DNA of 64,000 nt, from positions 52,470,254-52,534,253 of the forward strand of contig NC_057718.1 of assembly GCF_004010195.1 (NCBI RefSeq), in the 5' to 3' direction. This DNA comes from Chiloscyllium plagiosum. Its lineage: Eukaryota. The notes under the pieces were generated by a model that did no database searches, was not told where the DNA came from, and saw only the letters and a list, made by a program, of their open reading frames with translations. The position numbers were made by a program, and so were the translations under genes. Positions 5,329 through 53,479 of the stretch are shown piece by piece (within the stretch, counting starts at the first letter, position 1; every line of letters starts with the position of its first letter).

Positions 5329-6030
5329 AAGTGTATCAGTCCTGCTAAGATTTGCTTTCCCAAAATGCAGGTAGATAGGATAGTGAAGAAGGCATTTGGT
5401 GTGCTTTCCTTTATTGATCAGAGTATTGAGTACAGGAGTTGGGAGGTCATGTTGCAGTTGTGCAGGACATTGGTTCGGCCACTTTTGGAATATTGTGCCC
5501 AAATCTGGTATCCTTCCTATCAGAAGGATGTTGTGAAACTTTAAAGGATTGAGAAAAGATTTACAAGGATGTTGCCAGGATTGGAGGATTTGAGCTGTGG
5601 GGAGAGATTGAATAGGCTAGAGCTGTTTTCCCTGGACCGTCAGAGGTTGAGGGGTGACCTTATCGAGGTTTATAAAATTATGAGGGGCATGGATAGGGTA
5701 AATAGACAAGGTCTTTTCCCTAGGGTGGGGGAGTCCAAAACTAGCGGATATAGGGTGGGTGAGAGGGGAAAAATATAAAAGAGACCTAAGGGGCAACTTT
5801 TTCACGCAGAGGGTGGTGCATGTGTGGAATGAGCAGCCAGAGGAAGTGGTAGAGCCTGGTACAATTGCAACATTTAAAAGGGATCTGGATGGGTATATGA
5901 ATAGGAAGGGTTTGGAGGGATATGGGCCAGGTGCTGGCAGGTGAGACTAGATTGGGTTGGGATATCTGGTTGGAATGGACAAGTTGGACCAAAGAGTCTG
6001 TTTCTGTGCTGTACATCTCTATGATTCTAT
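5329..6030 (+). mobile_element. 5'-truncated CR1 LINE with inverted 5' 42 bp
   Basis: ORFs 5569-5778 and 5759-5944 give the CR1 ORF2 C-terminus (RLRGDLIEVYKIMRGMDRV, FFTQRVVHVWN); CTCTATGATTCTAT tail; 5329-5370 is antisense CR1. Confidence 0.95.
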
Positions 6031-7099
6031 AATCAATCATGACCAATTGCTTGAGCTGCTTAGCTAGTCAGCTCCAAATGATGAGTGACCAGACCCCTGA
6101 CTAATCTCTGTACATTGATCTCTCTCTCCCCCCTCTTCCCATGACTCCATGGACTGGTTGCATTGGACCCACTGAGCTGACCATGGCTCAGTCAGAGGCA
6201 GAGATTCTGTCCGCCCTGATTAACTGTGCTCAAGCCCCTGAACTAATATCAGCGATTGACCTTGGCTTGCTGTAAGTTGAGAATGCCTGCCTAAAGGATA
6301 ACTCCATGGACTTGATTGAGGGCTACTCCCCTTAGGCTTTGAGGCACATAAATTCAGTTGATGCAGTGCTTTCAGCATGTACACTGCTGGCACTTACTGC
6401 AGATGTGAGATTGACATAAGACTGTGGCATTTGCTTTGTGTGCATGCTAAATTACAAGCAAGGCAGATGTACAGTGAGCCTTTAAGATGCAGCTGAGAGA
6501 GCAAAGCACTAAAATGAATTGCAAGGCAATATGAGCATCCAGATATGCATGAAGCGATTGAATGATAAGACAGCGAGCCAGCAGCCCTGAGATGCCACCT
6601 GGTGTCCGAACCATGGTCACAAAGTGCCCTTGCAACAAAATTGCAATGAGAGGTGTCTGTGCACCCAATTATTTAATTGCAGAAGTATATTGTGAATAGA
6701 TCAGATGTGTGGCATGATGATGCCGAGAGACTGGTACATGTTGGATGCCAATGTCCGTGGAGGTGGGCTGCAAGTGATGTTGGTGCTCAGTATCCAAGAT
6801 GGAAGTCCGCAGGAGGAAGCAAAGACTTGGAGTCACCAGGTACCCAATCTGACTTTCATGTCACCAGTTCTCAGTATCTTATGATGGGCTGGAGGATGTG
6901 TCCTTGCATACCCATGAAATGAGATTAGATTGCAATGAAGGTGATAACGAGAAAAATCCCCAGTTATAGACTTCCAGTCGCAGACTAGCAAGAACTTAAT
7001 CTCAGCATCTGGGGCAACATTAGAAAGTAAGGCCTGATGACACCAAGAAATGCCTCTATCAGCATCTCACACTATTCCCCCAGGTTTCTCAACCTAACC

Positions 7100-8350
7100 A
7101 AGGTGTTCAGGGCCTAAAAATATTCAGTTCATTATGCTAATGTTGGAATGCCTTACTGATAGCACTCAGCTTCATACTGACGTCATCTCTTTTGTCTCCT
7201 CCCCTGTCACTAGATTATCACAGTGCTTTTTCAATATACAGTCCAGGATGGACAGTAAATTCCTTCAATTAAATACTCGGAATGGTGAAAATGGTGTCTT
7301 CAGTCCCTTCTGCAAACTTTGCTCCATACCTGTTTACTCCATTGCTCTCCCTGGCAACTGTCGAAGATTTAGCCAGACTGGTTGCAACCAGAGCCTTATA
7401 CTTGAAAGCAAAATGAGTTTCTGATGGCATATCCATTCCATCAGTAAGAACACCAATTTCTTTGTCTGTATCAGCACCTGACCCTACACCACATTAGCTC
7501 ATCTGTTGACAAAAACTATGCTTGAGTTACCTCTGGACATGCCTTCCTGTCAACATTACCACATCCTTTTCTCCACAAAATTGAGCCCAGTCAAAACTCT
7601 GCTGTTATATCCTTAGTCACACCAAGTTTCATTCAGCTTTCTCCCCTGTATTTTCTGATTTACCCCAGCTCAGACTGAAGAAATGTCTTAACTTTTCAAT
7701 GTCTGATCTCGTCTCCATGGTCTATGATCTTGCCCTCTACGGTCTTGCCCTCCTTATTTCTGTTATTGCTTCCAACATTAAAAGCTCCACTAATTTGGGT
7801 GTACCAGACTAGTTCTGGCATCTTGAATATCCCTAATTTCAGCTCCAGCATTGTTGGTCATGCCTTTAGCTGCCCATAAAATAAGCTCTTGAATCCATCC
7901 CTAAATCTGTCTCTCTGCATATCTTATCTCCTTTAGACATTTCTCAAGACTTAACTTATTTGACCAAGTGGAGAAAGTGAGGACTGCAGATGCTGGAGAC
8001 CTGGAGATGGATATCTGGTCGGAATGGACAAGTTGGACCAAAGAGTCTGTTTCTGTGCTGTACATCTCTATGACTCTATAACCGATCATGACCAATAGCT
8101 TGAGCTGCTTAGCTAGTCAGCTCCAAATGATGAGTGACCAGACCCCTGACTAATCTCTGTACATTGATCTCTCTCTCCATCTGCACTTTTCCAGCAACAC
8201 ATTTTCAGCTTATTTGACCAAGTTTTTGCCATCTGCCTTCATTTGGTTCATTGTCAAATGTTGCTGTAGTACACTTATGTGATGTGCCTTTAAATGTTTT
8301 ATTACATCATATCAAATTATTATTGTATCAAATGTCATTATGTTAAAAAC
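7100..8350 (+). mobile_element. L2 LINE RT C-terminus and 3' UTR (continuation of 3740-4250)
   Basis: ORF 7134-7424 LTDSTQLH...SKFLQLN (cf. YADDTQLY...NFLQLN); L2-type 3' end TTTGACCAAG...ATGTTTTATTAC; interrupted at 7970-8208. Confidence 0.7.
7970..8208. mobile_element. Composite insertion: Penelope pLTR ends enclosing a copy of 5960-6129
   Basis: Perfect 15 bp direct repeat CTTATTTGACCAAGT at 7955-7969 and 8209-8223; both ends match the pLTR family at 33591, 47553 and 51771. Confidence 0.85.
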
Positions 8351-11300
8351 AGTATAAAAACAAATTGTTAACTGTAATGACATGTTATATCTGGAAAGAG
8401 AATCATGTTAATATTAATACAAAACAAATATTCAAAGTTATTAGGGTGTAGTTAGTCATTTTATCACAAATGCATATTTAGTTCAATATTGTTCCATAAA
8501 GCATGATCAGATTACTTTATAATAAAGCATTTATCACAAATATTTTGACACTTCACTTCTGATCTTTTATATCTTGGCTATTTTGATCCACTGGAAGATA
8601 ATGCAAGTACTAAACAAATGTGACATGATCTTTATTTTTCATGAATGAGATGGTACAACTGACAAGTGATTAAAACAGTAATTTACATTATCTCTTAAAC
8701 AGATTAAATATAATGATTATTTCTCATGATTTCTTGGATCTTCACCATTAAACACTGGCAGAAATTTACAGGAGTTGGTGAAATCCCGACAGAAACCCCC
8801 CTCCATTATCTGAATGTTAGTGGACTTGATCTGAGAACAAATGTGGCTTTAGTTTTCCTCACAGGCAATTTAGGTTTCCATCACATTTGCACAAGACTTT
8901 GCTAACATGATAATGAATAAACTGTCTTCATGGGATTTTTACCAGCTCCAGTTTGCTTTACTTAATCTTGTATTCAATTCATAATTTGGCAGACAAAAAG
9001 CTATCCATGCAGAATGAGTTTTAGGTGTAGATCCAGTTACAAGGAGCTAAAGAAATCAGAGGTGGTATAAAATATGCTCTACTAGAAAAGATTATGCTGG
9101 TTTTCAAATGATGGGAAAGCTTTCTACACATATTTGTCTGGAAATAATGTTTGCTTACTCTCTGGACTGACATTTAAACTGTTGGTTATATGTTTGGACA
9201 AACCATTGCATGTTAATTTTGTAGAAAAACTATACGGGCAAACAAAAAAGCAAATTATTACATGCAAATATTTTTCTTGTGCGTACCTAAGCAAATGCAG
9301 TTTACAAATCTTTCATAACATGAAGTATTACCACAGTCAATTATGATTCACATCATACATACAATACATATGACTTATGTTAAATGTTTTGCATTTTTAA
9401 AATGTCCTGTTCAATTTTCTGACATAACTAGTTTCATAACGTCCAAATTCATTACACCTTAATAAGTAAGCAGTTGTTGCATAAAATTAACTAAAACCAT
9501 GTGAAAAAGTGCTTCTATATTACAATGTTACTCATTATCAACACATATGAAAGTAACTTAAGAAAATAAATTATGTGAAGCACCCACCTTCAACATAGTT
9601 GTCTTCTGTGTGCACAGACAGGAAAGGAGAAAAAGGAAAAAGACTCATTAAGCGGCATGCAGACTGGAATCTGCCTCTGCATGATCTTGTCATGCAAGGC
9701 ATTAAAACACAACATGCAAGTGTTCCATCACCAACATTCATGGCGAACAAGTGCCAGGGAAGCAGTGCTCTTCAAATTGTGGCATCATGTGAAGAGTTTG
9801 AATTTATGAAGGGAAAGTAATTTCTGATTCCATGTGAGTTGTTAAATTATGATTCTTCATTAACACAGACTCCTCTATGGGTTTAAGTCCGTAAATATTT
9901 TTTTTTTAAATACATGATGGAAATGGGACTAGCTGGTATGGTAGGCATAAGGTTATCATTCTAGTTTTTTCCCATTTGAATTAATTCTTAATCAATCTTT
10001 GTAAACTTAGCTGAAGGGATTATAAAATTATGCATTCTAAGCTTTTAAAAATTATTCTCCAATGCACAGAAATTACAAATAGTGCATTTGCAAAATGTCA
10101 TGTCAAAAAGTCAGAGAAAGGCATTGTGCAAAACTATATTTTATTCAAAATCAAAATCAATAATTTAGCATTTACTGCCTCCTTCATATTCCAAGTTTTC
10201 ATACAACTACCAACCCCTATTACAGCACACGTTATTGAAAAAGTATTAGAATTTGTTTTTTGCCTGAGCAGTACAGTTTCAATAACAAAATCTTATTGAA
10301 ATATGTACTTTGCACTAATGCAAAACTGTCAGTAATACTCTCATCATAATTGTTATTGCAATTATTAAGCACATGCAATATTATGACTAACAAAATTAAA
10401 TTGAACTATTTTTACTCTCACATACAAAATTTTAACCTTGATTAAATTTCAAATCTATTCATTATTTTATGTTAAAAAGGAAACTTATTTGTTAGAAGTT
10501 AACAAAATGCTCTTTAGATTACATTATTTTGGACATAACTGATGAAGCATTTTAAGTTATATGCCAATTGTAAGACACTGGGTGAATAATGGCAAACATA
10601 GATTCAGCAACTCATTCTTTCACAGTGGATTTGTCACAAATTAAATTACATTTGGTGCAAAAGAAAAAGGGAAGCATTTAAATTATAAACAATAAACAGA
10701 TATCATGAAGGTGGAAAAATATCCGACTGAAATCTAGTGTCACAGTTCACATGCAACTGCTTACTTTTTCAGCCCTTACATCTTATATTTAAAATTAATT
10801 TTGAATTGAGAGAACATTTGAATAGTTGTGTCTTAACAACTTAAACTCTCTTATTAACCTGGTGTTCTTTCTGACACACTCAATCATTCAGTACATTTTC
10901 AGTTGCACAGCTTCCATTGTGTTGTCCATGTTGAAATGCTTCAGGAGGTGTTGGGTACCAAATGTTAGAATTTTCTGGTTTTTAGTGTTAAAATCTATGT
11001 ACAGTGCACATAATCTGTATCTGATGTATACCTCTCAAACTTAATTACCAACAAGAGAAATATTTGTTACTTATCAAGATTCAAGCCAAGCCACAATCAC
11101 TGCATCAGAATAATTCATTCAATGATTCACTTAATGACCTTGCAATTAATAAAACTTCATAGATTATTTTTTAAAATTGAGAAAAAAACATTATTTGGCA
11201 ATTATAGATGTTTACATTGCTGTTGATGCATTATAAAGTTAAATAGAACTTATATTTAGAACATAAATTAATTTTAAGATTTAAGAAACACATTCTAACA

Positions 11301-33590: not shown

Positions 33591-33723
33591 AGGGGCTTTT
33601 GAAGGGCTTTTGCCCGAAACGTCGATTTTCCTGCTCCTCGGATGCTGCCTGACCTGCTGTGCTGTTCCAGCACCACTCTAATCTAGAATGTGGTTTCCAG
33701 CATCTGCAGTCCTTGTTTTAACC
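33591..33723 (+). mobile_element. Penelope pLTR mini-insertion (family B) with 15 bp TSD
   Basis: ACATACAAGAATTAG at 33576-33590 and 33724-33738; GAAGGGCTTTTGCCCGAAACGTCG is the 3' half of a hammerhead core. Confidence 0.85.
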
Positions 33724-34171: not shown

Positions 34172-35107
34172 ATTGCGCTGGCTTTCAGCCCAGACATCTC
34201 TGATGTCGCCCGAGCACAGAGGTAAAAAGAAAAAGAATGTGAAAAGAGAGGGAAAAGAAGTAAAGAAATGATGGAGCTGAGAAACTCATTCACTCGTTCT
34301 CCTTCTGTCAAAGGAATCCAGGAGAATAAAGTTAGTTAAGGCATTCGGTGAGGTGTGGCCCACTCATCCTCCTTGCTGTTATCTTCGGATTTTGTTTCAA
34401 GCTCTGAAAGACTGGAGTGAAGCGCCAATCCTGGAATCTCTTCCAGACACCCATATTCTACCAGCGCTGCTGACCCAACACTGTTATGGCTACAAAGAGT
34501 AGCATGCATCCTGTGAGTAACTGTGCCCAATTGCTCAGGGTACACATATGTGCCCCTGGCTGTGTCTGTCCACTATCCTCAGAGAGGGATTATCCAGAAC
34601 CACCTCTGCCTCTGGTACCTTCTCATGCACACCAACCTCATACCCCTTATGCAGTAGCACCCTATCTCACTTTATGTCAACACACCAAGGTAACTGTGTC
34701 TACGCTAGTGAATAGTGTTAAACAACCAGAGGTTAAATATGGGTTAGACAAAGTCCAGATATTTGCTTTTACAGTCAGAGTTTCACACAGACACCTCTAA
34801 CTCTAATCCTTTGATTACCTATTACTCATATATGCAAACACATACAGTTCTCACCCAATTATCCCTCAATTAACGTAGAATAAATATGTGTTTCTGAGTT
34901 CCTCAGGCATTCCTACCAGATTCTATTGGATAACAATGGAGGGTGTGTTTGTAAGATATTAGAGTATACTTCAGACATTTGCTGTTGCTTCCCTTGCTCA
35001 GAGGTAGTGAGTGAGGAATAAGGCTGAGCTTGTTCCTAGTGCAGTGCACAAGCATAAGGGGTTACTTGATTGAAGTAGACAAGATCCTGAACATTGTTGA
35101 TAAGGTG

Positions 35108-35293
35108 ATTTGGAGATGCCGGTATTGGACTGGGGTGTACAAAGTTAAAATTACACAACACCAGGTTATAATCCAACAGGTTTAATTGGAAGCACTAGCT
35201 GTCGGAGCACCGCTCCTTCATCAGGTGGTTGTGTAAGCTAGTTCTTCCTATTAAACCTGTTGGACTATAACCTGGTGTTGCGTGATATTTAAC
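35108..35293. mobile_element. Penelope pLTR inverted pair (family A) with 13 bp TSD
   Basis: TGTTGATAAGGTG at 35095-35107 and TGTTGATAGGGTG at 35294-35306; antisense long arm followed by sense short arm. Confidence 0.85.
35188..35224 (-). ncRNA. Minimal hammerhead ribozyme motif (core mutated GAAA>GACA)
   Basis: CUGAUGA-A-GGAGC(GGU)GCUCC-GACA-GCUAGUGCUUC. Confidence 0.65.
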
Positions 35294-36599
35294 TGTTGAT
35301 AGGGTGGATATTATGGCAGAGTCCTGAACTGGGGACACTGTTTAGAAATCAGTGACCACTCTTTTAGGACAAAGATGAGGAGCTTTTCTCTCAGAGATTA
35401 ATTTGACTTTGATACTCGGCAACAGGAAATGTGGTCACCGTAAATTTTTAAGACAGGCATAGATCAATTTTTATTCTTAGCTGAGGGAATCAAAAGTTAT
35501 TGGAGATAATTAGAAATGTAGAATTCACGATATTTACAGATCAGCCATGATTTTACAGAATAACAGAGGAGGCTTGAGGAGCTAAATAGCCTGGAGTTGT
35601 TTTTAATTCGCATGTTGGTATGTAAATGCTGCCTGCTTCTGTCCTCCACAGCTAATGCCAACTGCTACCTTCATTGGATGCGACATATTTTAGTATTTAT
35701 AGATCCTTAGCAGTGTGACTGGTCAAAGCTATTAGTAAGTAGTCTGAGCAAACACTGCACTCTGAGGGCCCTTAGCTGATGTGTGTGCTGTGTGGAAAAT
35801 ACAACGGCTATCCTGAAAGTTGGTTATACACTCACCTGGCCGGAGTGCACCTTTGAATATCTTATGACACTGTAACCAACTTCTGCAAACTACACTTTTG
35901 TCAGCTACACCTATCCAAGTCTGTTTCATCTGGACAGGCAGCCTCCTGCAGGAAGAGAACATTTCTCCTGTCTCCAGCTTCCAGATTTGAATGAGAGAAT
36001 GACAGAATTGACGTATTGCCATGTGTCAGGAAGAGGGCTCAAGCTCGGCTGAGATATTCTGGAATTCAAAACTTCTATCCTCATTCAATCCTCCTCTTAC
36101 ATCAGTGAAATGGTAGCCCTTGGAAACAGTTTGGGCCTGTATTGTGAGGCCTACTTACGTTGTCACCAATCTCAATCTCCACATCTATTAAGGTGACACC
36201 CATATGAAACTCTGAGCTAACGATTGCACATCCCCAGTCCTGACTTCTTTACTCCAACCCAAAGGGAAAATTCGAAAAAATGTGAAGCAGAGGTGAAAAC
36301 GATCTGGGATTACAAAAGCATACACAGTCACCTGAAGTAGCAAGGCAGATCAATAATGTGTGAAAGGAAAGTGAATATATTATTAAGATTCATTTTTAGA
36401 GGAAGGAAACTGAAAAATAGTTAAGTTTGCATATCTTGGTTCAGAACACGGTATATTGTAAACAGGATGTAGAGGCACTATTCAGGGTTAAAAAGTAAAT
36501 TTGCAAGGATAATTCTAGAACCGAGATGGCTTCTCTATCAGGAAAGAATGGATAGGCAACAAGTTGTCTTCTTATCTCCAGAAAACAGAAAATTGACAG

Positions 36600-37614: not shown

Positions 37615-39390
37615 TGAAACATAGAAAATAGGTTCAGAATTTGGCCCTTTGAGCCTTTTCTGCTCTTCAATATGATCATTGCTGATCTTCCAACTCATTA
37701 CTCTATTCCCACTTTCTCCCTATATCTTTTGATTCCTTTCGTCCTAAGAACTACATCTAACTCCTTCTTGAAAACATTCCATGTTTTGGATTCCATTGCT
37801 GTCTGTGCCAGAGAATTCCATAGGTTCTTAATCAAGGTTGTATACAAATTGAACACAACTTGCCTGCTTTTCAATTCCCTTCCTCTAGAACTGAATCTTA
37901 ATGATTTATATTCACTTTCCTCCTGGCGTTATTAACCTGCTTCACTTCACCTCTCTGGGTAAAGAAAATTCTCCTTGTCTCAGTCCAAAATGGACCACCT
38001 CATATTCTTAAAGAGTAAACTCTCTTTTTGGACACCACAATCATAAGAACATCCTTCCAATGTTTACCCTGTTTAAATTTCATAGGTTTCTATGAGATCT
38101 GCCCCATTCTTGTAAACTCCAGTGAATGTAGTCCTAAGTCTCTCTTCATACAGCAGTCCTATCATCCCAGGGATAAGCCTGGTAAACCTTTATTGAACTA
38201 TCTTCATAGTCGGAACATCCTTCCTCAGATAAGGAGACCAAAACTGCATAAAATGCTCCAGGTATGATCTCACCAAGGCCCTGTACAATTGCAGCAAGAT
38301 ATCCCTGCTCCTGTAACATGGATCTTCTACTTATGAAGGCTACATATTATTTGCCATCTACTTTGCCTGCTGCATCTGCTTGCTCACCTTCAGCAACTGA
38401 TCTTGTACAGCCTGATCTCATTTTCACCTTCCCATCCCAATTTATCACCGTTCAGTTAATAATCTGCTTTTTTGCATCTGCTCACAAAATGGATAACCTC
38501 ACATTGGTCCACCTTATACTTCATCCATCATGCATTTGCACACTCATACAACCTGTCCAAATCACACTGAAACATAGAACATGGAACACTATAGCGCAGT
38601 ACAGACCCTTCAACTCTCGATGTTGTGCCGACCTGTGGAACCAATCTGAAGTCCATCTAACCTACACTATTCCATTCTCACCCATATACCTATCCAATGA
38701 CCATTTAAATGCCCTTAAAGTTGGTGAGTCGACAACTGTTCCAGACAGTGTGTTCCATGCCCCTACTACTCTCTGACTAAAGAAACTACCTCTGACATCT
38801 GTCCTCTATCTATCATCCCTCAATTTGGAGCTTAGAACCGTCCTGCTAGCCATTACCATCCTAGGGAAAAGGATCTCACTGTCCACTCTATCTAACCCTC
38901 TGGTTATCTGAAATGTCTCAATTAAGTCACCTCTCAACCTTCTTCTCTCTAATGAAACAGCCTCAAGTTCCTCAACCTTTCCTCATAAGACCTTCCCTCC
39001 ATGCCAGGCAACATCCTGGTAAATCTCCTCTGAACCCTTTCCAAAGCTTCCACGTCCTTTTTATAATGCAGTGACCAGAACTGTACACAATACTCCAAGT
39101 GCGGCCGCACCAGAGTTTTGTACAGCTGCAGCACGACCTCGTGGTTCTGAAACTCAATCTCTCTACTAATGAAAGCTATATGCCTTCTTAACAGCCCTAC
39201 CAACCTCGGCGGCAACTTTGAGGGATTTTTGCATCCTCCTCACAAGTCACCCTCCCACCCAGCTTTGTATAAATTTGGAGATATTATAATTAATTCCCAC
39301 GTTTAAATGACTAATACATGTGATTTCAAGCACCGACTCCACTAGTCACTGCCTGCCACTCAGAAAAAGATGTTTATTCTGTTTATTTGT
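37615..39390 (-). mobile_element. Old CR1 LINE with a younger CR1 (38572-39230) nested inside
   Basis: ORF 38949-39215 LQLYKTLVRPHLEYCVQFWS..LERVQRRFTRMLPG; CATAGAACAT tails at 37620 and 38572. Confidence 0.88.
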
Positions 39391-40874
39391 TTCCTGCAAA
39401 GCATGAGGTGAAGTGTATAGGTTTATGCAACTAAATGTAATAAAAACAAGCGCTGGAATTTTACCAGTCTTATTGTGTCATTGAATTTAATCAAAACATT
39501 AACTTGCAAAATCTTTTTTACCCGTTTACTAACTTTAATTCATCGTCACATCAGAAAGTACATGCAGATAAATGGGCTCTAATATTGAGAATGATGTGGA
39601 TAGCTATTATGAAAGGATTTCTTAGGTTAATATTGAAAAATAATTTCTTAATTGTTAGTGACAATGCATTATGACCTCCAGATATACAAGCACTATAAAT
39701 AATCCTTTCTTTGCCAATTTTAAAAGGAACACAATCTTAAAAACCATACAGAAAAACCGGGCAAAATACTGTCAACTTATGCTTCTGACAGTTATGAACA
39801 TGGCCATTGTTGAAAACTACTCAATGATTTCGACACTAGGCTTCAGCCTGTTGTTATATCGTGAAAGGTGACAAGCCCTGGTGTAGGCAGGCCACTTAAG
39901 TTTGCAGCGCTGTAAAACTCAAGTAAATGCAAGTGTGAAAATAATGAAGTTACTCAAATAACAGAAATTCCTGTTTCTGTAATATGAGAGCTCAACTATA
40001 CAATGGAGCACCAAGGCACGATTGTAAATAAAACAGGGAAATGGAAATCCTTTAATACATAAAGTCCTGTGTTCTTAATTCTGCCACTTTTCTCTCTGAA
40101 CCTAATTGCTAATGTCAGCTACACTTTATTTATTTAATCCAAAAAAATCACTTCCAAGTCTTCTGCTTCCTCATTTTCAGATCTGCTGGACTCCAAACAT
40201 TTATTTTCAGGAATGACTTTGAAGTGCAGCTTCCAAGGCAATTTAAAGCTCCGAATCTCAAGATTTGCACAGTGCCAGTCATTCTGATAAACAACAAAAA
40301 GAAATAGGTTCTGTAAGCTCAGCATAGCACTCTCTGGAGTCCAGTAATGCCTTGATGAGTAAAATTAACCATGCTAAGCATTAAGAAACTTAGTCAAAAT
40401 CTGGTCAAACATTTTAAACTACAGCAGTAAGTTAGTATTTGGTATAAAAATAATGATGAGCTGTGTGCCCCAGATCGTTCAGACATAACTGAGAAATTAA
40501 ATGAACAAGCATAACTTACATTCCTTGCTGTTGCAAAGGAACCAAAATATATATCATATATTGAGACAAATTTGATAACTGGGACATGAAACTTTAAGAT
40601 GGTGACACCCAACAAATAAATTAGTATCCCTATTACAGAGGCCACTTCTGCCAAATCTATAAATGAGGCAAGATGGGCAGAAAAGATGCATTTATTAACT
40701 CAATGGGGAACAGTAAATATTGAAGGAAACTGTTTATTTCCTTTCATGACCTTTAATCATAAAAGCTCATGTCCACAATTACACTGAAAATTGTATCTAA
40801 TTTTGTGCCAGTTAATGTTTCATCAAAGCAAATACAAGAAAACCTTTAAAAAATGAACAAAATCAAACTTAGAC

Positions 40875-41046
40875 TTAAAAATCACACACCAGGTTATAGT
40901 CCAACAGGTTTAATTGGAAGCACACTAACTTTCGGAGCGATGCTCCGAAAGCTAGTGTGCTTCCAATTAAACCTGTTGGACTATAACCTGGTGTTGTGTG
41001 ATTTTTAACTTTGTACACCCCAGCTCAACACCAGCATCTCCAAATC
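40875..41046. mobile_element. Penelope pLTR fold-back palindrome (family A)
   Basis: Arms 40875-40938 and 40942-41008 around a 3 nt loop, then a one-sided tail TTGTACACCCC...CTCCAAATC. Confidence 0.88.
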
Positions 41047-46885: not shown

Positions 46886-47552
46886 TGCTGGTGAGTGCAG
46901 GACCTTTAGCAGTGCGTCTCACTTTTCAGCAACATTCAAAATTTCTGGAATTAATTTCTGGCCAACTTTACTCAGACTAATTTTTTTTTGTCCCTCAATC
47001 ATTAACTGCGAACATAAAGAAGCTCTGGCAGAACTTCGTCGTTACTTCAAGCATCTAATCCCAACACCCATAAAAATACTTCCCATATCATTAAAGAAGA
47101 TCAAATCACTTCATGCTCACTTAAAACACAGGATAATAAAGAGTAAGTTATCACCAGCAAGATCAGTGGCCCAAATGGTTAAACTTATCTCGTTGTTGCA
47201 GGAAACTCCAGGTCAACTGTTCTGTTGCAATTAGCACAATCCAAAATATCTTACAATGAAAATATTCAGGTTGGCTGAGCCCACAGTTTGAGGAGCTTTA
47301 TATACAATTAAGCATTCAAGAGTTGTTAGTGATGACTAAGACGATAAACAGCTAAATAAAGCCCAACTTTGCTGTCAAAATAATGGCAAAATGAATAACA
47401 ATGATAATTATTTATGTTCAAGTTCCACAGCTGCTTCTGGAAAGAGCAAATGTTTTACTAAATATGGAAACCAGTCTGTTATTGCTTGAGATGTGATAAT
47501 CTATCATTAGTTTTGTAGGAAAAGGCATGTTGCTGTCTACCTCCCCTTCCAG

Positions 47553-47670
47553 GAGAAAGTGAGGACTGCAGTGATCAGGAATTCAAGATGAAGGGCTTAT
47601 GCCCAAACTCTCCTGCTCTTTAGATGCTGCCTGATTTGCTGTGCTTTTCCTGCGCCACACTTTTTAATTA
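47553..47670. mobile_element. Penelope pLTR mini-insertion (family B) with 9 bp TSD
   Basis: CCCTTCCAG at 47544-47552 and 47671-47679; inverted tail GAGAAAGTGAGGACTGCAG followed by sense GATGAAGGGCTTATGCCC. Confidence 0.8.
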
Positions 47671-49432: not shown

Positions 49433-49524
49433 CTACTACCTGATGAAGGAGCGACACTCCAAAAGCTAGTGTGCTTCCAATTAAACCTGTTGGACTATAA
49501 CCTGGTGTTATGTGAGTTTTAACT
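49433..49524 (+). mobile_element. Penelope pLTR mini-insertion (family A) with 7 bp TSD and hammerhead core
   Basis: ATGATCA at 49426-49432 and 49525-49531; CTGATGAAGGAGCGACACTCCAAAAGCTAG from 49440. Confidence 0.82.
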
Positions 49525-49629: not shown

Positions 49630-51070
49630 GGCATGTGTTGTTTAATATAGCCAGAACAGAAGACAGAGAAGGCTATAAAACAGCAGGTGGGCTCATTTAG
49701 CTCTCAAACTAGAGAGGAGTGTATTTGTTATACCCTGTCTTTGTCAGAGAGTTGAATTATTCATGTGGAACTCAGGGCCAAAAGACTGCATATTAAACTA
49801 AAAGTTAATTGACCTCAAAAAAATCTATCTGACTTCGAACTGACCTTGTTGCCATAAATGAGTAACTTTGACTGGACATTTTCAGTGGGATTTTTCCAGT
49901 AGCTCTTTAGGAGTAGACCTCAAGTTGGTAGATATAAGAACTGAGTTCAGCAGGAGAGGCAAAGATAGCCAGCTAAGAGTTGTAAAATAGCTGCATACAA
50001 GGAACAAGAAAGTTATCAGAATTCAGGCTTTTCAGGGGTTGAAGCACAAAGGAAGAGTGCAGTGAAACCCAAGTGTAATGACAATGTCCACCATAACAAG
50101 ACACTTACAGAATGGTGTCGGGTCACTTAGGGACCCCGAAACAGCTCATATCTCAGGGAATAGCAGGAAGGCTCATGAGGGTTGACGTGCATTTCAGTAG
50201 CAATGGCATTTTGGTTTGGTACCAGGAATAAAGGAATCACCTGCAAGAGGTTAGATATGTAGCTCCTGGGGAGGCATCGTGGAAAGGTGAGAGGTTTAGT
50301 TCCGGGTTTGAACTTAGGGTGCTTGTCATTATATTTTCTTGTGACATTGCACCTAGGGCTATGCTAAATTAGTGGGTTTTTTGCCTTGTTTAATTTTGTT
50401 TTGTAAACCACAAGGTATGTTTCTATTTTAAGACATAAAGTTTTGTGGTATACTTTCTTCCTGTTAATCACTGACTGTTTAAATTTCTCTTTAAATTAGC
50501 GAGTTTTGAGAAGATTTGTAGCTCAGGTTGAGGTTCTGGATGTAGGTTTGCTCGCTAAGCTGGAAGGTTCATTTCCAGACATTTTGTCACCCTACTAGGT
50601 AATGTCTTCAGTGGGCCTCCTGGCAAAGCACTGTTGATAATTCGTGCTTTCTGTTTATATGTTTGGGTTTCTTTGGGTCAGAAATGTCATTTCCTATGGT
50701 GATGTCATTTCCTGTTCTTTTTCTCAGGGGTTGTAGATGGGGGACTAACTCGATGTATTTGTTGATAAAGTTCCAGTTGGAATGCCATGTTTCTAGGAAT
50801 TATCAGCAGTGCTTCGCCCGGAGGCCCACCACTACATCATTTCTATGGTGATGTAATTTCCTGTTCTTTTTCTCAGGGGGTGGTAGATGGGGGACTAACT
50901 CGATGTATTTGTTGATAAAGTTCCAGTTGGAATGCCATGCTTCTAGGAATTATCAGCAGTGCTTCGCCCGGAGGCCCACCACTGAAGGTGTTACCTAGTA
51001 GGGCGATGAAATGTCTGGAAATGAACTTTCGCTTTAAAAGTTACAGCAATCTCCATGGGGACCACAACAC
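49630..51070 (+). mobile_element. Possible old solo LTR interrupted by the Penelope at 50507-51030
   Basis: LTR-like composition; ends ...GGGGACCACAACA. Confidence 0.3.
50507..51030 (-). mobile_element. Penelope-like 3' end (family C) with inverted pLTR and 150 bp tandem duplication
   Basis: Minus strand encodes FLETWHSNWNFINKYI (cf. REFLEAWHS..INKHI); 50566-50643 is inverted at 50947-51030; hammerhead-like CTGAAG..GTTACC/GGTGAC..GAAA.GTC. Confidence 0.88.
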
Positions 51071-51770
51071 ACTGTCCATTCACTGATGCAAGAAAACATA
51101 TGAAACAAAGATGGTAGAGGAAACAAGTAGAGGAAAAATGCACCATCTCTGGTAGATTTGACAGAATGCTGTTTGCCAAGTTATGAGAGGATACACGGAA
51201 AGTTTATCCAAACCAAAACAGCACCTTGATCACAAGATAACTGAATGCAGCCATCAGTAAACTACCTGCCCTTTTGGCCTGCTCTAACATTCAATAAGAT
51301 CAAGGTTAATTTTCTCAGTCTACGCCAACTTCACACATGATGTCCATATGCCTTGATACCTTTAGAACCTGGAAACTCAATGACTAAATATCCACAGCTC
51401 TGTGGAGTATAGAATTAGAAACACTCACACCTTTGAGTGAAAAGAAATTTCTCTTATCTCAGTCTTAAGTGGCCAGTCTCTAATTCAAGGATTGTGACTC
51501 TTAGTTCTGAACTCTACAGACAAAGGAAACATCCTCCTCACATTTACATTGGTTAATTCCACGAAGAATTGATCTTGTTTCTGAAAGGATTTCCTTTCAT
51601 TTGTCTAAATTCTCGGAAATAAGCTTAGTCCACTGAAACTTTCACCATTGCATAGCCCTATCAACCTACGAAGCAGTCTAGTGAAGCTTTGCTGGAGTCC
51701 GACTGACGAACATATCCTTTTTTAAGGGTCATCATGGACTTGTTGGGCCAAATGGCCTATTTCCACACTG

Positions 51771-52881
51771 AGTTGAAAAATGTGTTGCTGGAAAAGCACA
51801 GCAGACCAGGCAGCATTCAAGGAGCAGGAGAATCAACGTTTCGGGCATAAAGGAATGAGGAAGGTGTGCCAAGCAGGCTAAGATAAAAGGTGGGGAGAAG
51901 GGACTTGGGGGAGGGGGGATTGGGAATGCGATAGATGGAAGGAGGTTAAGGTGAAGGTGATAGGACAGAGAGGGGGTGGGGGCGGAGAGGTTGGGAAGAA
52001 GATCNNNNNNNNNNNNNNNNNNNNNNNNNNNNNNNNNNNNNNNNNNNNNNNNNNNNNNNNNNNNNNNNNNNNNNNNNNNNNNNNNNNNNNNNNNNNNNNN
52101 NNNNNNNNNNNNNNNNNNNNNNNNNNNNNNNNNNNNNNNNNNNNNNNNNNNNNNNNNNNNNNNNNNNNNNNNNNNNNNNNNNNNNNNNNNNNNNNNNNNN
52201 NNNNNNNNNNNNNNNNNNNNNNNNNNNNNNNNNNNNNNNNNNNNNNNNNNNNNNNNNNNNNNNNNNNNNNNNNNNNNNNNNNNNNNNNNNNNNNNNNNNN
52301 NNNNNNNNNNNNNNNNNNNNNNNNNNNNNNNNNNNNNNNNNTTGGAGGTGGCGGAAATGACGAAGGATGATACGATGTATCTGGAGGTTGGTGGGGTGGT
52401 AGGTGAGGACCAGTGGGGTTCTGTCCTGGTGGCGATTGGAGGGGCGGGGTTCAAGGGCGGAGGAGCGGGGAGTAGAGGAGATGCGGTGGAGAGCATCGTC
52501 AACCATTGCTAAGGGGAAAGTGTGGTCTTTGAAGAAGGAATTGGGAACATGGGATGGCGTTTTTACAGGGGGCAGGGTGGGAGGAGGTGTAATCTAGGTA
52601 GCTGTGGGAGTCGGTCGGTTTATAGTAAATGTCCGTGTTGAGTCGGTCGCCCGAGGTAGAAATTGAGAGGTCTAGGAGGAGGAGGGAGGAGTCTGAGACA
52701 GTCCTGGTAAATTTGAGGTCGGGGTGGAAGGTGTTAGTAAAGTGGATGAACTGTTCAACCTCCTCATGGGAGCACGAGTTAGCACCGATACAGTCACCGA
52801 TGTAGCGAAGGAAAATGTGGGGGGCGGTGCCAGTGTAGCTGCAGAAGATGGACTGTTCCACATATCCGACATACTTCCACA
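51771..52881 (-). mobile_element. 5'-truncated Penelope-like element (RT C-half, thumb/linker, pLTR family B)
   Basis: ORF 52499-53068 FLRYIGDC..FHPDLKFT..LDLSI..DIYYKPTDSHSYLDYTSSHP; ORF 51946-52506 RTPLVLTYHP; 13 bp TSD TATTTCCACACTG. Confidence 0.95.
52005..52341. other. Assembly gap (N run)
   Basis: Run of N. Confidence 1.
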
Positions 52882-53479
52882 TATTTCCACACTGTAGGGG
52901 TTCTATGATTCTATGATTCTTAAGTAAGGAGATCAAAACTGTACACAGTATTCCAGGTGTAACCTCATCAATGGTTTTTTTGTAATTGTAGGAAGACTTC
53001 TTAATTTTTTTATTGTCCATCTCCTTGCGAGAAAAGATAGTTTGCTGCACCTGCATTCGCATGGACAAGTATATTGAATTCTCTCAGAACACCAATACCT
53101 TTCTCCATTTTAAACATATTTCGTTTTTCTATTTTTTTTCTTCCAAAGTGCATAACTTCACAATTTTCCACAGTATATTCCATACTTCATGTTCTTGCCC
53201 ACTCATAAAGCCTGTCTACATCCCTTTGCAGTCTTTTTACATCCACATGACTTACTGTTGCATCTAAATGGAATAGTTTTAAAAGTGATCTGGCAGTAAA
53301 GTAGGCTTTCATGAGGCACTGTGGCCGTCAACGCAACATAATTATACTTAATCTGTAACCTCTTACCCTTGCATTTCCTTCACTCCAGCATATCAACAAG
53401 TCAGAGCCCAGGCTCTATAAAGAAGATCATACTTTGAGCAGCACCAGAAATAACAAATAATAATGACATTCATACAACA

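What the first reader, a model, noticed from the sequence alone, without database searches (positions are those of the whole stretch)
7955..8223. Penelope-bracketed insertion that captured ~170 bp of DNA from 2 kb upstream
Seen: a perfect 15 bp direct repeat (CTTATTTGACCAAGT) encloses three parts. (i) The inverted pLTR tail GAGAAAGTGAGGACTGCAGATGCTGGAGA (7970-7999). (ii) A copy of 5960-6129 at 8009-8178, covering the CR1 3' end plus ~100 bp of its non-CR1 flank, with that CR1's private variants (GGAATGGACAAG, CCAAAGAGTCTG). (iii) A sense pLTR end, CACTTTTCCAGCAACACATTTTCAG. The two copies differ at about five sites, and the copy keeps CpGs (GTCGG, ACCGAT) that the source has lost, which argues for a real old event rather than an assembly artefact. 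The insertion at 47553-47670 has the same end architecture without cargo. Inference: during Penelope integration, synthesis switched to nearby chromosomal DNA or nascent transcript, giving a retroelement-mediated local copy-and-paste of host sequence. I do not know whether this has been described for PLEs.
Basis: partly seen in the sequence, partly recalled or inferred. Interest (0 to 1): 0.75.

Follow-up and report, generated by a model that had tools for sequence, protein, structure and literature searches.

The report
Penelope insertion patched with nearby DNA
A 239-base insertion in a shark-type genome has the two tips of a Penelope-like jumping gene around a 170-base copy of DNA from 2 kb upstream, is absent from a related species, and was likely patched together by ordinary DNA-break repair as the element landed, which makes it a well-dated example of processes already known.

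Summary
The structure is real. A perfect 15-bp duplication encloses 30 nt of inverted Penelope-like tail, a 170-nt copy (165/170) of 5960-6129, and 28 nt of sense pLTR end. Public contigs of a related species skip exactly 254 bp, an empty site. Two species carry both element tips. One run of the sister species holds two versions of the filler, each at single-copy depth. Five source/copy differences fit the 5.0-6.9 expected for that interval. No listed contig spans a filler junction.

Most likely one aborted, doubly primed integration left a gap that repair synthesis filled from nearby DNA (0.6). Rivals are later replacement of a hairpin centre (0.2) and a switch onto RNA (0.13). The filler's size and distance match known repair-mediated duplications (PMC2671141). 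Host DNA between pLTRs is already described (PMC3846280), as are templated insertions in L1. My ten paper searches found no report of a local donor for Penelope elements. The scan noted this pattern before on other DNA of this genome (five unchecked notes). The locus is a modest new variant; the recurrence, if confirmed, is the interesting part.

The parts
7955..7969 (+). Target-site duplication, left copy
   Evidence: 15 of 15 identical to 8209-8223; one contig of organism C skips 254 bp = insert plus one copy
7970..7999 (-). Inverted 30-nt 'tail' of a Penelope-like pLTR
   Evidence: Matches the 3' extension of the sense pLTR at 33692-33713 (21 of 22) and 47552-47571 (20 of 20)
8000..8008 (+). 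Left junction filler, 9 nt; 8001-8007 repeats 7993-7999 exactly
   Evidence: 7-nt repeat of the preceding letters; 0.2% of 100,000 random 9-mers reach this
8009..8178 (+). Filler: direct-orientation copy of 5960-6129 (74 nt CR1 3' end plus 96 nt of flank), 2,049 bp downstream of its donor
   Evidence: 165 of 170 identical, ungapped; the flank part has one other match in the window
8179..8180 (+). Right junction filler, 2 nt
   Evidence: Belongs to neither donor nor aligned pLTR; an 8-nt inverted match spanning it is not significant (8% of 3,000 trials)
8181..8208 (+). Last 28 nt of a sense pLTR without tail
   Evidence: 20 of 20 with 51777-51796; ends within 2 nt of where that element ends
8209..8223 (+). 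Target-site duplication, right copy
   Evidence: contigs of organisms A and B run from 8189 through it into the flank
5960..6129 (+). Donor of the filler: 3' end of a truncated CR1-type LINE and its flank
   Evidence: the name CR1 is recalled, the family has RT and endonuclease hits at 27.3 and 28.6 kb
51771..52881 (-). Reference element outside the finding: 5'-truncated Penelope-like body ending in the same pLTR end, 13-bp TSD
   Evidence: TSD; RT piece 82% to shark proteins and 46% to a protein with RVT_1 then GIY-YIG
47553..47670 (+). Comparison insertion without cargo: inverted tail, short fold-back centre, about 85 nt of sense pLTR, 9-bp TSD

Best explanation
The 239-bp insert between a 15-bp duplication consists of two Penelope-like element tips around a copy of DNA from 2 kb upstream, and was likely made in one aborted integration whose central gap would have been filled by repair synthesis on nearby chromosomal DNA. 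Steps: (1, inferred from the TSD and empty site) the element's endonuclease made a 15-nt staggered cut. (2, inferred from PMC11167929) both 3' ends primed reverse transcription on the element RNA at its two start sites; the right end copied 28 nt from the no-tail site and the left end copied the 30-nt tail, which therefore lies inverted. (3, inferred) both stalled without complementary ends. (4, the copy is shown, the agent is inferred) one end slipped once, leaving the 7-nt repeat, then copied 170 nt from the donor on the same, sister or homologous chromatid, as in synthesis-dependent strand annealing or alternative end joining, and was joined to the other end. The product is an inert scar with no ORF and no hammerhead core.
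For: Empty site in organism C: one 4,110-nt contig runs 7970 to 8225 at adjacent record positions 2244/2243, a skip of 254 = 239 + 15. Both tips are present in organisms A (1 of 1 run) and B (2 of 2 runs): contigs end at 7993-7994 and start at 8189. Run X5 of B has two 77-nt contigs over 8052-8130, each at depth 12.9 where single-copy contigs have 10.8-12.7; C has one contig there. Insertion and duplication therefore map to the same branch. Divergence A-B 83/2822, A-C 109/2703 predicts 5.0-6.9 differences; 5 seen. Filler length 170 and distance 2,049 bp fit repair-mediated duplications: mean 162 bp, 824 of 1,136 donors within 5 kb, junction fillers common, TSDs in 6 of 39 proximal cases inspected (PMC2671141). 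A purified PLE protein cuts and extends both strands and starts at two RNA sites that bracket the tail (PMC11167929). L1 insertions take in short nearby templates (22 cases; bioRxiv 2024.08.27.596794).
Against: No listed contig spans a filler junction, so the filler's position between the tips rests on the assembly and on copy number (163,202 pieces not shown). Only 1 of 2 B runs shows two filler versions; X7 shows one contig at 8099. In run X1 of A one contig carries the copy's letters over 8057-8178 (0 differences) but runs on into the donor's flank; I read this as graph simplification, but donor = copy in that animal is not excluded. All 3 sites polarised by other CR1 ends, and a fourth by CpG decay, changed in the donor (4:0, p = 0.125), which a symmetric clock does not predict. 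There is no exact microhomology at either junction. Nothing here identifies the polymerase or separates one step from two steps on the same branch. The tree ((A,B),C) is estimated from 39 of the 40 visible rows of a 155-row table.
Confidence: 0.6

Rival explanations
1. Two steps. A normal fold-back PLE stub inserted first. Its hairpin centre was later cut out and replaced by a repair-mediated duplication from 2 kb upstream, with no role for the integration itself.
For: The left arm stops near where the self-complementary part of a fold-back would begin. Fold-back forms exist in the window (47.55 kb, and a second family at 35.1, 40.9 and 49.4 kb). Repair-mediated duplications of this size arise without any retroelement.
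Against: Both events must fall on one short branch, about 0.5-0.7% divergence per lineage. No intermediate was seen in 4 runs of 3 organisms, though contigs break inside the tips and could not show the centre. Twin priming also predicts a stop near the tail boundary.
Confidence: 0.2
2. The element's reverse transcriptase itself jumped from the element RNA to a nascent or read-through RNA covering 5960-6129 and back, or was joined to the other cDNA, as in U6/L1 chimeras.
For: The filler covers a LINE 3' end plus downstream flank in sense orientation, as a read-through RNA would. Template jumps are proposed for Penelope (PMC3846280) and for L1 chimeras (PMC13174262). The 7-nt slip could equally be RT re-priming.
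Against: The donor LINE is about 700 bp and 5'-truncated, so it likely has no promoter. 224 of 224 non-repeat open frames of 58 codons or more gave no Pfam hit above cut-off, and the only meaningful weak hit was a LINE endonuclease; short exons would be missed. No poly(A), no splice.
Confidence: 0.13
3. The filler came from a dispersed composite repeat or a third locus, or the join is an assembly artefact.
For: The donor carries all polarisable changes. No junction-spanning contig is listed. The window holds two N gaps. An earlier scan note describes a multi-copy PLE cargo in this genome (e1-7858329, unchecked).
Against: At 90% likeness, summed depth at 8099 is 9.1, 25.8, 8.1 and 13.1 in the four runs, i.e. 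one or two loci (table 4). The copy's own letters occur in a public run of organism A. The empty site is exact. The copy keeps ancestral letters that the assembled donor lacks, which mis-assembly of donor reads would not produce.
Confidence: 0.05

Closest known systems
Repair-mediated duplications by capture of proximal DNA (Pace et al. 2009, PMC2671141; parts 1-5 of 8 read)
   Same: Donor within 5 kb, length near the 162-bp mean, short junction fillers, no poly(A), neutral divergence, empty orthologous site, TSD in a minority of cases.
   Different: Here the copied DNA sits between two retroelement tips that share the TSD. That study filtered out transposon insertions and linked its duplications to L1 activity only by correlation.
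Host DNA captured between Penelope pLTRs in Adineta vaga (Arkhipova et al. 2013, PMC3846280; parts 1-4 of 5 read)
   Same: Unrelated sequence between pLTR ends, enclosed by a TSD, with an empty allelic site; inverted pLTR and one-sided tail.
   Different: The NRPS cargo is gene-sized, lies between two direct pLTRs and is explained by mobilisation in trans. Here the tips are only 30 and 28 nt, no direct upstream pLTR exists, and the donor is 2 kb away with no pLTR beside it. Donors of the paper's non-coding cases are not given in the parts read; its supplements were not read.
L1 twin priming with templated insertions (bioRxiv 10.1101/2024.08.27.596794; passages read)
   Same: Two priming events give an inverted 5' piece; non-element templates under 250 bp are copied in during integration, with an SDSA-like model proposed.
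   Different: Different retroelement class; the text places those templates within 15 bp of the site, against 2 kb here (its Supplementary Fig. 4d could not be seen).
Canonical EN+ Penelope-like insertion units (PMC8557442 passages; PMC11167929 parts 1-2 of 4)
   Same: 5'-truncated sense end, adjacent inverted piece, 30-40-bp tail at one end only, TSD.
   Different: Both arms are extremely short and are separated by non-element DNA.

Membership tests
EN+ Penelope-like insertion unit | Ends derive from an element that encodes RT with a C-terminal GIY-YIG endonuclease | tested here: met
   Indirect: the sense end matches the 51.8-kb element (20 of 20), whose RT piece has 91 homologues; P0087 (46% identity) has RVT_1 at 104-252 and GIY-YIG at 497-581. 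The window piece itself got no Pfam hit.
EN+ Penelope-like insertion unit | Target-site duplication created at insertion | tested here: met
   15 of 15; exact empty site in organism C
EN+ Penelope-like insertion unit | Inverted 5'-truncated piece at the 5' end, with a 30-40-bp tail at one end only | tested here: met
   Inverted 30-nt tail at left; sense end lacks it; the tail continues the sense pLTR in the 33.6-kb copy
EN+ Penelope-like insertion unit | Hammerhead ribozyme motif in the pLTR | tested here: inconclusive
   Not in this insert, which is truncated downstream of it. Sister copies match a recalled core with 1 mismatch (48.6 kb) and 2 (33.6 kb). Rfam found no hammerhead among 7 weak matches.
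EN+ Penelope-like insertion unit | AT-rich target | tested here: inconclusive
   TSD 67% AT, flanks 64%, window 59%
Repair-mediated duplication (Pace 2009) | Donor within 5 kb, length 50-619 bp, present at one other place only | tested here: met
   2,049 bp and 170 nt; one or two loci by contig depth at 8099. No whole genome was available.
Repair-mediated duplication (Pace 2009) | Breakpoints with microhomology, filler or deletion, and no poly(A) | tested here: met
   Fillers of 9 and 2 nt, no poly(A); no exact microhomology at the junctions
Repair-mediated duplication (Pace 2009) | Made by SDSA on a DNA template | not testable with these tools
   Mechanism inferred from anatomy only
pLTR-mediated mobilisation of host DNA (Arkhipova 2013, NRPS type) | Cargo between two direct pLTRs, moved to a new locus in trans | tested here: not met
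   Only an inverted tail precedes the cargo; no pLTR match lies beside the donor; donor is 2 kb away
LINE 3' transduction | Transduced flank ends in the LINE's own 3' tail or poly(A) at the TSD | tested here: not met
   The filler ends in a PLE end, and both TSD copies abut PLE sequence

The most novel reading that the evidence does not exclude
Penelope-like integration routinely leaves two cDNA ends that cannot pair, and the gap is regularly closed by copying DNA from within a few kb. PLEs would then be a steady source of short local duplications in shark genomes, and these scars would record the unresolved joining step of PLE integration. Five unchecked scan notes from this genome (cargo 137 bp to 1.7 kb, donors 0.4-3 kb away, upstream and downstream) point this way; in this window 1 of 5 copies of the pLTR family carries such cargo.
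Probability: 0.4. Interest if true: 0.55.

Novelty: new variant of a known kind. Interest (0 to 1): 0.3.

Why it matters
The locus itself is likely neutral. Its value is mechanistic. How PLEs finish integration is stated as unresolved in PMC11167929 and PMC8557442. A dated insertion with tips of only 30 and 28 nt, ending at what look like the two reverse-transcription start sites and bridged by local DNA, fits priming from both target ends followed by host gap repair. If such cases are common, they would tie some repair-mediated duplications directly to retroelement cuts, which PMC2671141 could only correlate, and give a genome-scale test of DNA versus RNA templates.

Tried and rejected
No whole genome is held for this window, so no genome-wide census was possible. 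Rfam gave 7 weak matches, none above its gathering score and none a hammerhead. Pfam gave no hit for 3 of 3 element fragments and no host exon among 224 of 224 open frames. The ESM Atlas put the RT piece near HTH_animal/RVT_1 clusters, a lead only. An inverted match across the right junction, which might suggest snap-back synthesis, was rejected as evidence (8% by chance). Clustering of the five differences in the first half of the filler is not significant (p = 0.14), nor is their one-sidedness (p = 0.125). Joints from the tail to 8181-8188 are marked 'between: not known', so I did not count them as cargo-free stubs. I dropped the idea that the letters after the tail at 47.57 kb show the tail's continuation; they match a fold-back centre. 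No TSD of 7 nt or more was found for the donor LINE. Scan look-ups for relatives of this stretch found nothing. Of 23 runs listed, 4 were laid; raw-read and RNA runs were not. Missing junction contigs are not counted as absence. Paper searches that returned no report of a local donor for PLE cargo; the library lacks most subscription papers.

Full report
OBSERVATION. The structure is in the sequence as described. Positions 7955-7969 and 8209-8223 are identical over 15 nt and do not extend. Between them lie 239 nt: 7970-7999, 8000-8008, 8009-8178, 8179-8180 and 8181-8208. The 170-nt middle matches 5960-6129 at 165 positions without gaps, 2,049 bp upstream and in the same orientation. Its first 74 nt are a LINE 3' end (the name CR1 is recalled). 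It is closer to the 5960 copy (71 of 73) than to any of six other such ends in the window (best 66 of 74), and two variants, 8023 and 8040, are absent from all six. The other 96 nt have one further match in the window, the donor's flank. The five differences are at 8020, 8074, 8082, 8084 and 8097. Three of three that other LINE ends can polarise changed in the donor; two of five are CpG decay.

THE TIPS ARE PENELOPE-LIKE. The right tip matches the 3' end of a 5'-truncated element at 51771-52881 (20 of 20) that has a 13-bp TSD, and stops within 2 nt of where that element stops. That element's RT piece has 91 homologues, the best 82% identical in carpet sharks, and one homologue at 46% carries RVT_1 followed by GIY-YIG. 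The left tip matches, inverted, the extension that follows the sense pLTR in the 33.6-kb copy (21 of 22), which has its own 15-bp TSD. This is the one-sided tail described for PLEs (PMC8557442, passages). Five members of this pLTR family lie in the window, two with an inverted tail and one with cargo. The 47553-47670 copy is similar but longer, with a fold-back centre.

PUBLIC DATA. Of 23 runs listed for 6135-10500 I laid four on 6130-9129 at 90% likeness: one of organism A, two of B from different studies, one of C. All are contigs. In C one 4,110-nt contig aligns to 6150-7970 and 8225-9129 at adjacent record positions, a skip of 254 bp, which is the insert plus one TSD copy. In A and in both B runs, contigs run from the left flank through the TSD to 7993-7994 and from 8189 through the TSD into the right flank, so both tips are present. 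At 8099, in the non-LINE part of the filler, summed depth is 9.1 (A), 25.8 and 8.1 (B) and 13.1 (C), against single-copy contigs of about 6-16. The filler is therefore not a dispersed family. Run X5 has two different 77-nt contigs there, each at 12.9, as expected for donor plus copy. Results against a clean reading: no listed contig crosses a filler junction (163,202 pieces are not shown); X7 shows only one version; and in X1 one contig has the copy's letters over 8057-8178 but continues into the donor's flank. The last is what bubble removal in a graph assembler would give (my inference); zero differences over 122 nt would have probability 0.03 at the A-B rate. X1 may or may not be independent of the window's assembly.

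AGE. Flank divergence from the window is 4 of 2,829 for A, 83 of 2,822 for B and 109 of 2,703 for C. From 39 of the 40 visible rows of a 155-row table, B-C is about 4.4%, so A and B are sisters. A copy made between the two splits should differ from its donor at 5.0-6.9 of 170 sites; five are seen. Insertion and duplication thus fall on the same short branch. Ancestral polymorphism could make the insertion somewhat older.

MECHANISM. Shown: TSD, empty site, PLE origin and orientation of the tips, local donor, matching age. Inferred: the order of events and the polymerase. A purified PLE protein cuts and extends both strands and starts reverse transcription at two RNA sites that bracket the tail (PMC11167929, parts 1-2 of 4). 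Priming from both target ends explains a tail-less sense tip on the right and an inverted tail on the left. Two such short cDNAs have no complementary ends, so a gap remains. The left junction repeats the last 7 tail letters, which 0.2% of random 9-mers do, the mark of a polymerase that slipped and re-primed. There is no exact microhomology at either junction, and an inverted match across the right one is not significant (8%). The filler's length and distance sit in the middle of repair-mediated duplications in vertebrates: mean 162 bp, 824 of 1,136 donors within 5 kb, fillers common, TSDs in 6 of 39 proximal cases (PMC2671141, parts 1-5 of 8). I therefore favour DNA-templated repair during integration (0.6). 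A later replacement of a fold-back centre (0.2) cannot be excluded, but must fit on the same branch. An RT jump onto RNA (0.13) has no positive sign: the donor LINE is truncated and 224 of 224 open frames gave no host exon, though short exons would be missed and no RNA run was laid. Artefact or a dispersed donor is unlikely (0.05).

COMPARISON AND NOVELTY. Each ingredient is known. Host DNA between pLTRs with a TSD and an empty allele is reported in a rotifer, including 'a few other cases' of non-coding capture (PMC3846280, parts 1-4 of 5; supplements not read). Templated insertions during L1 integration are reported, with templates much nearer the site (bioRxiv 2024.08.27.596794, passages; supplement not seen). 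L1-RNA chimeras are catalogued (PMC13174262, passages). Ten searches found no paper giving a kilobase-range local donor for PLE cargo; most subscription papers are outside the library. The scan has noted the same pattern on other DNA of this genome five times and a related one in another genome. These are unchecked AI notes that I could not test. They raise the odds of a recurrent process but do not support this locus.

VERDICT. A real, dated, probably inert scar: a PLE insertion unit by the features tested, whose centre works like a repair-mediated duplication. New variant of a known kind, interest 0.3. If a census shows the pattern is routine, interest would be about 0.55.

Noticed in passing
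window 5329-5370 next to 5367-6033: The donor LINE is about 700 bp, 5'-truncated, and carries a 42-nt piece of its own family in inverted orientation at its 5' end, the usual twin-priming pattern; no TSD of 7 nt or more found.
   Followed up: partly
joint 8079 to 7969: In all four runs, 7-26 contigs from other loci join a LINE 3' end to this pLTR tail (letters between not known), hinting that this PLE family often lands in LINE tails.
   Followed up: no
window 35103-35293, 40868-41041, 49433-49524: A second family of short palindromic insertions with 7-8-bp direct repeats at their edges; likely another fold-back PLE family.
   Followed up: partly
window 50563-51030: Rearranged repeat: a 147-bp block repeated at 96.6% (50687-50833, 50837-50983) and an 81-bp piece repeated inverted at 84.5%; looks like serial template switching.
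   Followed up: no
window 36365-36427 and 37857-37921: A 65-bp inverted match at 83%, 1.5 kb apart, with no TSD found; may be an older local duplication.
   Followed up: partly
window 51758-52894: The truncated PLE body sits inside a short interspersed repeat, with a 13-bp TSD and a 337-N gap in its middle.
   Followed up: yes
window 5960-6129 versus 8009-8178: All four differences that can be given a direction changed in the donor, none in the copy (p = 0.125), and the last 81 nt are identical; unexplained.
   Followed up: partly
window 6730-6929: Contig depth rises to 170-510 in all four runs, so part of the donor's downstream region is a moderately repeated element that has no second copy in this window.
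   Followed up: no
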